Shown here piece after piece: positions 18,001 through 21,000 of a stretch of 64,000 bases of DNA. This stretch comes from Escherichia coli (lineage in GTDB: Bacteria > Pseudomonadota > Gammaproteobacteria > Enterobacterales > Enterobacteriaceae). Every line of letters starts with the position of its first letter. Within the stretch, counting starts at the first letter, position 1. The position numbers are program-made. The stretch is taken from assembly GCF_030013205.1 (NCBI RefSeq), contig NZ_CP122648.1. The stretch is one strand, 5' to 3'.

Positions 18001-21000
18001 GTCGGTTTGCACTTTTCGCTGAAGGATTTGATGGCGGTAAAGGCCATCGCCATTCCCGGTGCGATCGCCCAGATAGCCGTGGCGACGCTGCTGGGTATGG
18101 CGCTCTCCGCCGTGCTGGGCTGGTCGTTAATGACCGGTATCGTGTTCGGCTTATGCCTTTCCACCGCCAGTACCGTGGTGTTACTGCGCGCACTTGAAGA
18201 ACGGCAATTAATAGACAGTCAGCGTGGGCAAATCGCCATCGGTTGGTTGATTGTGGAAGACCTGGTAATGGTTCTGACGCTGGTGTTGCTGCCCGCAGTG
18301 GCAGGAATGATGGAACAAGGCGATGTGGGCTTTGCCACTCTTGCTGTCGATATGGGGATCACCATCGGCAAGGTGATCGCATTTATCGCCATTATGATGC
18401 TGGTAGGTCGCCGTCTGGTGCCGTGGATTATGGCACGCAGCGCAGCAACCGGTTCCCGTGAGCTGTTTACCCTGTCGGTGCTGGCGCTGGCGTTAGGGAT
18501 TGCCTTTGGTGCGGTGGAGCTGTTTGATGTCTCCTTTGCACTCGGTGCGTTCTTTGCAGGGATGGTACTGAACGAGTCTGAACTGAGTCACCGTGCCGCC
18601 CACGATACACTGCCATTGCGCGACGCGTTTGCGGTGCTGTTTTTTGTCTCCGTCGGGATGTTGTTTGATCCGTTAATTCTGATTCAGCAACCGCTGGCAG
18701 TGCTGGCGACGCTGGCGATTATTCTGTTTGGTAAGTCGTTAGCCGCGTTTTTCCTGGTGCGACTGTTTGGTCACTCCCAACGTACGGCATTAACCATCGC
18801 CGCCAGCCTGGCGCAAATTGGTGAGTTCGCGTTTATCCTGGCGGGACTGGGCATGGCGCTGGATCTGTTGCCGCAAGCCGGGCAGAACCTGGTACTGGCA
18901 GGGGCGATTTTGTCGATTATGCTCAACCCGGTCCTGTTTGCGCTGCTGGAGAAATATCTGGCGAAGACCGAAACGCTGGAAGAGCAGACGCTGGAAGAGG
19001 CTATCGAAGAAGAGAAGCAGATCCCAGTGGATATTTGCAACCATGCGCTACTGGTAGGTTACGGTCGTGTAGGCAGCCTGCTGGGGGAGAAATTGCTCGC
19101 CTCTGATATTCCTTTAGTGGTGATTGAGACGTCACGTACTCGCGTCGATGAACTGCGCGAGCGCGGGGTCCGCGCAGTATTGGGCAATGCGGCGAACGAA
19201 GAAATTATGCAACTGGCGCATCTGGAATGTGCTAAATGGCTGATCCTGACGATTCCCAACGGTTATGAAGCGGGCGAGATTGTGGCATCTGCCCGCGCGA
19301 AAAATCCGGATATTGAGATTATCGCCCGCGCCCATTATGACGATGAAGTGGCGTATATCACCGAACGTGGCGCGAATCAGGTAGTGATGGGTGAGCGTGA
19401 AATTGCCCGTACTATGCTAGAACTGCTGGAAACACCACCGGCGGGTGAAGTGGTGACGGGGTAAACGGTGGTTGCCGGATAATAGGCGCGGATATGTAGG
19501 CCTGATAAGACGCGCCAGCGTCGCATCAGGCATTGAGAGCAAAATGCCAGATGCGGCGTGAACGCCTTATCTGGCCTACGAACCGACGATAACTTAACGA
19601 TCCCAGTAAGACTCTTCCAGGCTGTCTTCACGCTCCGGCAAGCCGCGCGTTAAACGAGGTGAATGCTGGTTCAGTACCTGATAGCTCACACGGTTTGCAT
19701 ATTTACACACCTGCGCTAACGATGAATAAGTTAACCAGGTGAATTTATGTTTGCTGGAGTTTGGTACGTTGCTACGGTGGTAGCTGTTGGCGGTAATGTC
19801 ATGCAGCAACGCTGCCAGTGCGCCATCCCCCGCTCCATTAGTGTTCATGATTTTTTCCGGACCGCCCATATACGGCGCAATGTGCGAATAGACACGCAGC
19901 GGATTCTGGCAATCCTTGTGGCGCATGGCACGGCTAAACTCATACTGGTTAAATTCCGCTATAGCACCCGGCAGCAGCGGATGCTGGGTTTTACGTTTCG
20001 CTTCGTCTTCGGTAAAGCCCGCCATATACAAGCCGATTGGCCCTGCGGTGCACAGCACCAGATCAACCCAGTCCAGCGCCTTGTCAGATGCTAACAACGG
20101 ATCGCTTTCTCCGGTCAACGCTTCGGCTTCATCTTCGTTCATCGCAAGGATAGAAACGTGGTCTTTGAGGAATTGCTGCCACCACTGCGGATTCTCGGCA
20201 ATGACAAACTTGGTGCCCAGCGTCAGCACCACCGGTACGTTATATTTCTTCGCGTACTCAATGGCTTTCATGGTTGCTTCCGGCATGGGTTCACCCGGCT
20301 TGCAACGCACCAGATAAGAAGTGAGAACCAGTGCCGAGGCTCCGGCAATCACATCTTCCGGAATACTTTCAGCCCGCAGCTGGTTCATGTGGCCAGGGCT
20401 GATAGCAAAGGTACGTTCCCCGGACTCGCCAATCAGCGTAAAGCAACGACCAATCGGGCCATCCACGCCTTGTAGATAGTTAAGATCGGTACGGCTGGAG
20501 GTGTTACACAGGTAACGATAGGCATAGCTGCCAATTTCAATATTGCTACACATGACGCCCAGCAGCACCGAACGGTCGTCCGCGAGCACCGAGTAGTTGT
20601 GCATGGTGTTACCAATAGTGCCACCCGCAAATTGATGGGTAATCAGGTTTTTCTGTTTTAGTTCCTGATAAAGCGCTTCGGCTACGTCATCCTCAATCAC
20701 CAGTGAATGCCCGGCGCTTAATCCATAACGCTCAATGAATTCGTCATCCACTTTCGCTTCAATATCGACCAGCGTTTGATCGATACCCACTACCCAGGCG
20801 GCGCTGGTTTCGTTTTCTGGCTGGAATTGCTGAAGCAGCGGATCGCGTGCATTTACAGGGAAGTAATGTTTGGATTTACGTTTACCGGGAAATTTCATGG
20901 TTGTTTTTACGGGTGGTTAACTGAGCGGCGAATGTTAACACAATCTGACGGGAGCGCGCGAGACGCAGCCAGTTTCAATATCAGCAGGCGGGATCGCATT

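What the first reader, a model, noticed from the sequence alone, without database searches (positions are those of the whole stretch)
19471..19580. REP/BIME cluster and REP-like hairpins at several convergent gene junctions
A canonical two-unit REP element lies between ybaL and gsk. Similar GCCGGATG...CATCCGGC hairpins occur after ybaK (14432..14455), after htpG (about 23893..23920) and after queC (about 56612..56645). These are ordinary E. coli intergenic palindromes and serve as a contrast to the atypical copA-ybaP element.
Basis: seen in the sequence. Interest (0 to 1): 0.12.

Follow-up and report, generated by a model that had tools for sequence, protein, structure and literature searches.

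The report
Ordinary E. coli REP pair (BIME-2)
The stretch between the converging ybaL and gsk genes is a standard pair of E. coli 'REP' palindromic repeats, a long-known intergenic repeat that most likely caps and protects the ends of the two messages, so it is real but ordinary.

Summary
Confirmed and ordinary. The window is E. coli. The 129-nt ybaL/gsk spacer holds one z2 REP (19496-19532, 37/37 to consensus, GTAG on + strand), a 12-nt linker, and one y REP (19545-19579, 33/35, CTAC at its 3' end). This is one BIME-2 unit. A half-REP remnant lies at 19473-19490. These are the only full REPs in the 64 kb. Rfam scores the unit as naRNA4 (RF02564; 81 bits, threshold 59.5).

The locus is polymorphic. 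Of 5,426 E. coli genomes, 4,658 carry the two-REP allele, 568 carry a one-REP allele (also in E. albertii), and 36 carry IS621 inserted in the z2 GTAG.

The three GCCGGATG...CATCCGGC hairpins exist (3 found, 0 expected). They are not REPs by definition: perfect stems, no GTAG/CTAC, single-copy loci. The htpG one is a classic intrinsic terminator, and htpG/adk are co-directional, not convergent. Published Term-seq puts the ushA mRNA 3' end 5 nt after the ybaK/ushA hairpin. Citrobacter has REPs or hairpins swapped at the same junctions, so a REP ancestry is plausible.

The most likely function is a bidirectional 3'-UTR hairpin: an exonuclease block with partly Rho-dependent termination. Already known; low interest.

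The parts
19496..19532 (+). z2-type REP in REP orientation on the + strand (5' GTAG, then an imperfect palindrome). Its minus strand carries ATCAGGCCTAC (19506..19496), the natural IS621 target.
   Evidence: 37/37 to the z2 consensus. Hairpin -21.9 kcal/mol, z -5.5. Consensus and IS621 target taken from PMC11208160.
19533..19544 (.). 12-nt inner linker (S position) between the non-GTAG ends of the two REPs.
   Evidence: Sequence. Same 12-nt length as the inner linkers of other K-12 BIME-2 units, and 8/12 identical to one of them.
19545..19579 (-). y-type REP. It reads as REP (5' GTAG) on the minus strand, the gsk mRNA strand, and as iREP ending in CTAC on the + strand. Its two differences from consensus (G>A, C>T) are compensatory within one stem pair.
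   Evidence: 33/35 to the y consensus. Hairpin with a 1x1 internal loop, -19.8 kcal/mol, z -5.5.
19499..19576 (-). Span scored by Rfam as naRNA4 (RF02564): y hairpin, linker, z2 hairpin.
   Evidence: 81.1 bits against gathering 59.5, model positions 1-77 of 77.
19473..19490 (.). Degenerate half-REP remnant (TGCCGGATAATAGGCGCG). It resembles the GTAG-side arm of a y REP with one insertion, has no GTAG and no stable hairpin. K-12 has a different sequence here.
   Evidence: not paired in the MFE fold.
19462..19464 (+). ybaL stop codon, 31 nt upstream of the z2 REP.
19594..19596 (-). gsk stop codon, 14 nt upstream (in mRNA sense) of the y REP.
14429..14452 (.). Perfect 10-bp, 4-nt-loop hairpin filling most of the 36-nt ybaK/ushA convergent spacer. 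No GTAG and no U tract.
   Evidence: Published Term-seq places the ushA primary 3' end 5 nt after this stem in K-12. The stem is conserved in E. albertii with a different loop and flanks.
23881..23920 (-). Intrinsic terminator of htpG: 12-bp stem and 6-nt loop (23920..23891), then TTTTCTTTTC (23890..23881). It lies upstream of the co-directional adk gene.
   Evidence: Top hit of the terminator scan. -21.3 kcal/mol, z -5.3. Identical in E. albertii. Present in 5413 of 5426 E. coli genomes.
56623..56647 (.). 9-bp, 7-nt-loop hairpin in the 51-nt queC/fadM convergent spacer. Its first 16 nt match the y REP left half 15/16. No GTAG/CTAC and no U tract.
   Evidence: Present in 5419 of 5426 genomes.

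Best explanation
The element is one BIME-2 unit. A z2 REP and a y REP lie in inverted orientation, 12 nt apart, beside a decayed half-REP. It belongs to the high-copy REP family of E. coli, which is non-autonomous DNA associated with the RAYT/TnpA(REP) enzyme.

It sits in the shared 3' region of the convergent ybaL and gsk genes, so it is transcribed into the 3' UTR of both mRNAs. There the REPs fold either as two hairpins or as one long composite hairpin. These most likely stop the 3'-to-5' exonucleases PNPase and RNase II, so they define and stabilise the transcript ends. They probably also contribute to partly Rho-dependent termination, which limits antisense read-through into the opposite gene.

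The three short GCCGGATG hairpins do the same kind of job at their own junctions. The htpG one is a true intrinsic terminator. The other two are U-less 3'-end hairpins.

Shown here: identity, structure potential, copy number, polymorphism, and position relative to published 3' ends. Inferred: the stabiliser and terminator activity at this particular locus.
For: Identity. The two units match the z2 and y consensus exactly or nearly, with GTAG/CTAC present, and shuffles give 0 matches. Consensus sequences come from PMC11208160 and PMC12306157. The architecture fits the BIME-2 definition: z2 plus y, inverted, with a short linker (PMC3333891). The linker length equals that of other K-12 BIME-2 units. 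The Rfam naRNA4 match is above gathering.

Repeat family. The 301-nt query finds a median of 12 places per genome in 5,425 of 5,426 genomes. A 350-kb K-12 sample holds 23 REPs.

Structure. Folding z-scores run from -5 to -5.9 on both strands.

Function, from the literature. In K-12, a Rho termination region on the gsk-sense strand is placed at 501531, which is 4 nt past the outer end of the z2 REP (Rho score 2.6, p 9e-7). ybaL-sense read-through ends by Rho inside antisense gsk at 501016 (Adams 2021; mapping). Rho-dependent transcripts end just after stable U-less stem-loops, 24% of which are REPs, and are trimmed back by PNPase and RNase II (Dar & Sorek 2018). REP325, the source of the naRNA4 model, behaves as a partly Rho-dependent terminator plus mRNA stabiliser. 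In addition, 207 of 704 convergent spacers carry a REP, and those gene pairs are more highly expressed (2026 preprint).

A hairpin of some kind is kept at this junction across species. Citrobacter werkmanii has a perfect 12-bp hairpin, E. albertii has one REP, and E. coli has one or two REPs.
Against: No dominant Term-seq 3' end for gsk or ybaL appears in the supplementary text I could search. The Rho-region coordinate comes from 800-nt windows and is only approximate. ybaL-sense transcription evidently passes through the element, since Rho stops it about 410 nt into antisense gsk. It is therefore at best a weak terminator in that direction. [quoted passage not shown] Nothing was measured in this strain. 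About 14% of E. coli genomes lack the two-REP allele without obvious harm.
Confidence: 0.85

Rival explanations
1. The unit is a naRNA4-type nucleoid-associated noncoding RNA gene. The transcribed y-plus-z2 hairpin RNA binds HU and bridges cruciform DNA to condense the chromosome.
For: Full-length Rfam RF02564 match above gathering. Qian et al. 2015 reported HU binding and nucleoid condensation by REP325 and naRNA4, and that about 80% of REPs are transcribed.
Against: The Rfam model is in effect a model of any y-linker-z2 unit, so the match shows shared sequence, not shared function. A 2026 preprint that includes the original senior author finds that REP325 and naRNA4 do not measurably compact the nucleoid and that REP-REP contacts are not seen. 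No evidence exists for a discrete RNA from this locus.
Confidence: 0.05
2. In addition to, or instead of, 3'-end protection, the y REP lowers Gsk protein output. It lies only 14 nt after the gsk stop codon, so the folded hairpin would hinder the terminating ribosome. This is the REP-within-15-nt rule.
For: The distance of 14 nt is read directly from the sequence. [quoted passage not shown] 2015. That paper also says that stop-proximal REPs are enriched at purine-metabolism genes, and gsk is a purine salvage gene. In the one-REP allele and in E. albertii the distance is about 32 nt, so the effect would be allele-specific.
Against: I could not read the primary paper. gsk is not named in any text I could search. 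The first 4 nt of the REP (GUAG) are unpaired if each REP folds alone, which puts the stem 18 nt from the stop.
Confidence: 0.2
3. The element is selfish or neutral DNA with no host function at this site. It is a REP doublet (REPIN-like) that landed in a permissive convergent spacer and persists by drift and RAYT activity.
For: Strain-to-strain turnover is seen: two-REP, one-REP and IS621-disrupted alleles, plus a decayed half-REP. BIME copy number and linkers are known to vary between strains. REPs and REPINs are described as non-autonomous mobile elements (abstracts).
Against: Every Escherichia and Citrobacter genome examined keeps some strong GC-rich palindrome at this junction. The two stem differences from the y consensus are compensatory. 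Published transcript and Rho data place a transcript boundary at the element's edge.
Confidence: 0.2
4. On the sub-claim about the three short hairpins: they are independent terminator hairpins with no REP ancestry, and their shared stem is convergence on a good GC-rich palindrome.
For: The same TGCCGGATG...CATCCGGCA hairpin occurs as single copies in many unrelated phyla, often next to T-runs. None has GTAG or a stem mismatch. The loci are single-copy and nearly fixed. None was found in 350 kb of other K-12 sequence.
Against: Three identical 8-mer stems in 64 kb is far beyond chance. Escherichia albertii and Citrobacter genomes carry 3-6 or more copies each, against about 0.0006 expected (my own calculation for a 5-Mb genome; scan). 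In C. werkmanii the ybaK/ushA junction has a REP pair whose y-type 3' arm aligns with the E. coli hairpin's 3' arm. The C. werkmanii ybaL/gsk junction has a short perfect hairpin where E. coli has REPs. The queC hairpin matches the y left half 15/16.
Confidence: 0.4

Closest known systems
E. coli REP (PU) types y and z2, arranged as BIME-2 (Gilson/Bachellier nomenclature; Ton-Hoang et al. 2012, PMC3333891)
   Same: 35- and 37-nt imperfect palindromes with GTAG/CTAC, matching the consensus exactly or nearly. Inverted orientation, 12-nt short linker, extragenic position between convergent genes, high copy number, and polymorphism between strains.
   Different: Only one unit plus a decayed half-REP, whereas BIME-2 often occurs as tandem multiples. 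The y unit carries a compensated A-T pair where the consensus has G-C.
Rfam RF02564 naRNA4 (CssrE), a unit of REP325 in the yjdM-yjdN spacer
   Same: Same y hairpin, linker and z2 hairpin layout. Full-length match at 81 bits.
   Different: The linker sequence differs. This is a single unit at a convergent junction, not a six-unit array inside an operon. No evidence of a discrete HU-bound RNA from this locus.
REPIN/RAYT system (Bertels & Rainey 2011; Nunvar 2010)
   Same: Two inverted REPs with a short spacer that can form one long hairpin. The GTAG tag is the RAYT recognition mark.
   Different: The two arms are different REP types (y and z2), not two copies of one sequence. Mobility was not tested, and no RAYT gene lies in the window.
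Intrinsic terminators and U-less protective 3' stem-loops of Rho-dependent transcripts (Dar & Sorek 2018)
   Same: The htpG hairpin has the full stem plus U-tract signature. The ybaK/ushA hairpin sits 5 nt upstream of a mapped mRNA 3' end. The queC/fadM hairpin has the same form and position.
   Different: All three share an identical stem sequence that equals the y REP arm, which ordinary terminators do not.

Membership tests
E. coli REP (y / z2) | 30-40 nt imperfect palindrome with a mismatch in the stem | tested here: met
   37 nt and 35 nt. Folds show an internal loop in each stem, -19 to -22 kcal/mol. Definition.
E. coli REP (y / z2) | Conserved GTAG immediately 5' of the palindrome foot (CTAC on the complement) | tested here: met
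   GTAG at 19496-19499 (z2). CTAC at 19576-19579 (y).
E. coli REP (y / z2) | Sequence match to the y, z1 or z2 consensus | tested here: met
   z2 has 0 mismatches and y has 2. Shuffles give 0 matches. Consensus.
E. coli REP (y / z2) | High-copy, dispersed, extragenic | tested here: met
   Median 12 megablast places per genome. 23 REPs in 350 kb of K-12. Lies in the ybaL/gsk spacer.
E. coli REP (y / z2) | Bound and cleaved by TnpA(REP)/RAYT | not testable with these tools
   Needs biochemistry. The known sequence determinants, GTAG and the stem mismatch, are present.
BIME-2 | One y and one z2 REP in inverse orientation | tested here: met
BIME-2 | Short (S) linker between the non-GTAG ends | tested here: met
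   12 nt, the same length as in three other K-12 BIME-2 junctions, and 8/12 identical to one of them. The published S-motif sequence itself was not available to compare.
BIME-2 | Occurs as multiple tandem copies, variable between strains | tested here: inconclusive
   One unit plus a half-REP here. Strain variation is seen as two-REP, one-REP and IS621 alleles, but no tandem amplification was found in the genomes I opened.
Rfam RF02564 naRNA4 | Covariance-model score at or above the curated gathering score | tested here: met
   81.1 against 59.5 bits, full length, minus strand.
Rfam RF02564 naRNA4 | Discrete HU-associated RNA product | not testable with these tools
   No expression or RIP data for this locus. 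The function of the founding member is now disputed.
REP membership of the three short hairpins (14429-14452, 23891-23920, 56623-56647) | GTAG/CTAC tag at the foot | tested here: not met
   The flanks are ATTG/CTTT, AAAA/TGAC and GTGT(C)/ACCA.
REP membership of the three short hairpins | Imperfect palindrome of 30-40 nt matching a REP consensus | tested here: not met
   Perfect stems of 9-12 bp, total length 24-30 nt. Only 9-12 nt of the y left arm match.
REP membership of the three short hairpins | Dispersed multi-copy family | tested here: inconclusive
   0 in 350 kb of other K-12 sequence. Each locus is single-copy by megablast. However, there are 3-6 copies per genome in E. albertii and Citrobacter against about 0.0006 expected (my own calculation). 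The scan was cut at 120 rows.
Intrinsic (Rho-independent) terminator | GC-rich stem-loop followed directly by a U tract on the transcribed strand | tested here: met
   Met for the htpG hairpin only: 12 bp, 7 GC pairs, tail TTTTCTTTTC, the best hit of the scan. Not met for the ybaK/ushA and queC/fadM hairpins or for the BIME, which have no T-run on either strand.
Natural IS621 (bridge-RNA recombinase) target | 11-mer ATCAGGCCTAC with a CT core | tested here: met
   Exact match on the minus strand at 19506..19496 (target). IS621 sits at exactly this AG/CT core in strain F344 and in 36 of 5426 genomes.

The most novel reading that the evidence does not exclude
At a few fixed junctions in the Escherichia/Citrobacter lineage, y-type REPs and short perfect 'GCCGGATG' hairpins replace one another. 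This would mean that mobile REPs are repeatedly domesticated into, or arise from, ordinary transcript-end hairpins, for example by internal deletion or palindrome 'perfection'. A further reading is that the E. coli-specific switch from the one-REP allele (REP about 32 nt from the gsk stop) to the BIME-2 allele (14 nt) changes Gsk output through the REP-near-stop-codon effect.
Probability: 0.2. Interest if true: 0.3.

Novelty: already known. Interest (0 to 1): 0.08.

Why it matters
It matters little in itself. REP/BIME elements have been catalogued in E. coli since the 1980s, and this copy is a textbook one. It is useful as a calibration point in three ways. First, it shows what a true REP looks like (GTAG tag, stem mismatch, multi-copy) next to look-alike hairpins that are terminators or 3'-end caps. 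Second, it is a natural landing site for IS621, the bridge-RNA recombinase. Third, it is a small, well-sampled example of how a convergent-gene junction always keeps some hairpin while the hairpin's identity turns over between strains and species.

Tried and rejected
- A fuzzy-regex REP scan timed out. I replaced it with blastn-short and the DNA search.
- The RefSeq K-12 feature table shows no REP repeat_region features, so I could not confirm the official REP number for this locus.
- The Liang/Rudd/Deutscher 2015 paper is not held. I took the 15-nt rule second-hand from PMC12306157.
- The RepRanger and Dar & Sorek supplements held no usable gene tables.
- No dominant Term-seq 3' end for gsk, ybaL, htpG or queC appears in the held Adams 2021 tables.
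- A sigma-70-like hit inside the BIME (19508..19479, minus strand) is rejected. The scan found fewer promoter-like sites than the shuffles did (3 against 11.2).
- The Rfam mir-3913 hit (19.6 bits against 100) is rejected as noise.
- The 84-aa GTG ORF 19377..19631 (minus strand) overlaps the end of ybaL and the REPs. I treated it as spurious.
- The first attempt to count IS621 alleles was not locus-specific, because other IS621-REP junctions also match. I replaced it with a query across the ybaL-side junction.
It gives copy numbers per genome only for the genomes it happened to reach, not a taxonomic census.
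Full report
**What the window is.** The region is Escherichia coli. Positions 19380-19680 are 100% identical to strain CFSAN018748, and 5,425 of 5,426 complete E. coli genomes hold a match. The window runs opposite to the K-12 MG1655 map at about 494-508 kb. ybaL is on the + strand (17788..19464) and gsk on the - strand (19594..20898). They converge on a 129-nt spacer, 19465..19593.

I scanned the 64 kb with the three published E. coli REP sequences. These are quoted in Durrant et al. 2024, and the EcoCyc-based consensus is quoted in Murashko et al. 2025. Exactly two full-length matches came back.
- A z2 REP at 19496..19532, identical to consensus at 37/37, with GTAG at its 5' end on the + strand.
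- A y REP at 19545..19579, 33/35, ending in CTAC on the + strand.

The statistics are E 1e-16 and 9e-11 and no match in 100 shuffles for either. The two y differences (G>A and C>T) fall on the two sides of one stem pair and keep it paired. Each unit folds as an imperfect hairpin of -19 to -22 kcal/mol, z about -5, on either strand. The whole spacer can instead fold as one long composite hairpin in which the two REPs pair with each other (-62.1 kcal/mol, z -5.9). Between the ybaL stop and the z2 REP lies TGCCGGATAATAGGCGCG (19473-19490). It resembles half of a y REP with one inserted base, lacks GTAG and does not fold stably. K-12 has an unrelated AT-rich sequence at that spot.

**What it is.** Ton-Hoang et al. 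2012 define E. coli REPs as 30-40-nt imperfect palindromes with a conserved GTAG 5' of the foot. They define BIME-2 as a z2 and a y REP in inverse orientation separated by a short linker. All of these features are present. The 12-nt inner linker has the same length as the inner linkers of other BIME-2 units that I pulled from K-12, and it is 8/12 identical to one of them. The family is dispersed: the 301-nt query finds a median of 12 places per genome, and a 350-kb sample of K-12 holds 23 REPs. Rfam places 19499..19576 (minus strand) in RF02564 naRNA4 at 81.1 bits against a gathering score of 59.5, over the full model. That model was built from a unit of REP325 and is in effect a model of a y-linker-z2 unit, so the match restates the BIME-2 assignment.

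**Population and species picture.** Three alleles exist in the 5,426 E. coli genomes.
- The two-REP allele covers at least 80% of the query in 4,658 genomes.
- A one-REP allele has an 82-nt spacer and a z2-like REP about 32 nt from the gsk stop. It is found in 568 genomes.
- In 36 genomes IS621 is inserted in the GTAG of the z2 REP, with the AG (CT) core on both sides.

The window's z2 REP carries ATCAGGCCTAC, which is exactly the natural IS621 target reported by Durrant et al.. Escherichia albertii has the one-REP allele, so that state is probably the older one in Escherichia. Citrobacter werkmanii has neither form. Its 39-nt ybaL/gsk spacer is filled by a perfect 12-bp hairpin, TGCCGGATGGCG-CTA-CGCCATCCGGCA.

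**The three other hairpins.** The pattern GCCGGATG-N(3-20)-CATCCGGC occurs exactly three times in the window against none expected. Those three hairpins account for six of the nine GCCGGATG octamers. All three have perfect stems (10, 12 and 9 bp), lack GTAG/CTAC, and match only the first 8-12 nt of the y REP (9-12 counting the flanking T, which the queC hairpin lacks). They therefore fail the REP definition. Their loci are single-copy by megablast and nearly fixed for htpG (5,413 genomes) and queC/fadM (5,419).

- **htpG.** This is the best intrinsic-terminator match in the region on the minus strand: a 12-bp stem followed by TTTTCTTTTC.
- **ybaK/ushA.** The hairpin fills most of a 36-nt convergent spacer. 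Published Term-seq data for K-12 list the primary ushA 3' end at 506602 in two conditions (Adams et al. 2021). By my mapping that is 5 nt after the stem. The same study places a Rho termination region for ybaK-sense transcripts about 100 nt further on, inside antisense ushA.
- **queC/fadM.** The hairpin lies in a 51-nt convergent spacer. Its first 16 nt match the y REP left half 15/16.

**Are the short hairpins related to REPs?** I found none in 350 kb of other K-12 sequence, so they are not a high-copy family. E. albertii and several Citrobacter genomes had 3-6 copies each. By my own calculation, chance predicts about 0.0006 copies per 5-Mb genome. Two of the E. albertii copies are the orthologues of the ybaK/ushA hairpin (same stem, different loop and flanks) and of the htpG terminator (identical).

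In C. werkmanii the ybaK/ushA spacer is 116 nt. It holds a z-like unit ending in CTAC and a y-like unit, GCAG-GCCGGATAGGG...CGCCATCCGGCA. The 3' arm of that y-like unit and the bases after it align with the 3' arm of the Escherichia hairpin. So REPs and short hairpins occupy the same junctions in sister taxa, in both directions. This makes a REP ancestry plausible for at least some of the hairpins. It does not show the direction of change.

**How it most likely works.** No experiment addresses this copy directly, so the mechanism is inferred from position and from the family.
- Dar & Sorek 2018 showed that Rho-dependent E. coli transcripts end just after stable stem-loops without U tracts, about a quarter of which are REPs. 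PNPase and RNase II trim the transcripts back to those structures.
- Adams et al. place a Rho termination region on the gsk-sense strand at 501531, which is 4 nt beyond the outer end of the z2 REP in K-12 (Rho score 2.6, p 9e-7). They place another for ybaL-sense transcripts at 501016, about 410 nt into antisense gsk. These coordinates come from 800-nt windows and are approximate.
- A 2026 preprint from the Xiao and Adhya groups reports that REP325 does not compact the nucleoid. Instead it acts as a partly Rho-dependent terminator and an mRNA stabiliser. The preprint also reports that 207 of 704 convergent spacers hold a REP and that such gene pairs are more highly expressed.

My best reading is therefore a bidirectional 3'-UTR hairpin that blocks exonucleases and helps, weakly, to stop read-through. 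A possible extra effect follows from the y REP starting 14 nt after the gsk stop codon. REPs closer than 16 nt to a stop codon are reported to reduce translation (citing a paper I could not read). In the one-REP allele the distance is about 32 nt. This is untested.

**Rivals.** The naRNA4/HU nucleoid-condensation role is now contradicted for the founding member. Purely selfish DNA cannot be excluded, given the turnover between strains. However, every genome examined keeps some strong palindrome at the junction.

**Verdict.** The finding is real, correctly interpreted in its core, and already known. The corrections are as follows:
- The cluster is one BIME-2 unit plus a half-REP remnant.
- The three look-alike hairpins are not REPs by definition.
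- One of the three is a plain intrinsic terminator at a tandem junction.
- The locus is polymorphic and is a natural IS621 target.

Interest is low.

Noticed in passing
window 19496-19506; locus L136 (strain F344) 345-360 and 1625-1640: The z2 REP carries the exact natural IS621 (bridge-RNA recombinase) target ATCAGGCCTAC. In strain F344, IS621 sits in the GTAG with the AG/CT core on both sides. The same ybaL-side junction occurs in 36 of 5,426 E. coli genomes.
   Followed up: yes
window 14424-14459; locus L015 1641-3001: The ybaK/ushA junction is dimorphic. In roughly 775 genomes the 36-nt spacer with the hairpin is replaced by about 1.36 kb carrying a DUF6896 gene and a hypothetical gene. 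A different hairpin (GGCGGCGTCATgatATGACGCCGC) lies next to the ushA stop.
   Followed up: partly
locus L024 (Citrobacter werkmanii) 6897-7012 and 11963-12001: Relative to E. coli the junction contents are swapped. Citrobacter has a REP pair at ybaK/ushA, where E. coli has a short hairpin. It has a short perfect hairpin at ybaL/gsk, where E. coli has REPs.
   Followed up: partly
window 19465-19593, both strands: The two unlike REPs (y and z2) are complementary enough to pair with each other. The minimum-energy fold of the spacer RNA is one long hairpin (-62 kcal/mol) rather than the two separate hairpins of the Rfam model.
   Followed up: no
window 13740-13823 (-), 27499-27563 (-), 31390-31513 (-), 44909-45005 (-), 62644-62739 (+): Other Rfam matches above gathering: sroB (ChiX sRNA, next to ybaP), the dnaX frameshift element, STnc490, SRP RNA (ffs) and sraA. 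All are expected for this part of the E. coli map.
   Followed up: no
window 1-64000: The window is REP-poor, with 2 REPs in 64 kb against 23 in a 350-kb K-12 sample. It is relatively rich in GCCGGATG perfect hairpins, with 3 against 0 in that sample.
   Followed up: partly
locus L004/L005 (strains CX15, D5) ybaL-gsk spacer; L034 539-616 (E. albertii): The one-REP allele carries a z2-length REP with y-type stem bases (TGCCGGATGCGATGCTAGCGCATCTTATCCGGCCTAC). Its flank toward gsk is different and longer. It is shared by 568 E. coli genomes and E. albertii.
   Followed up: partly
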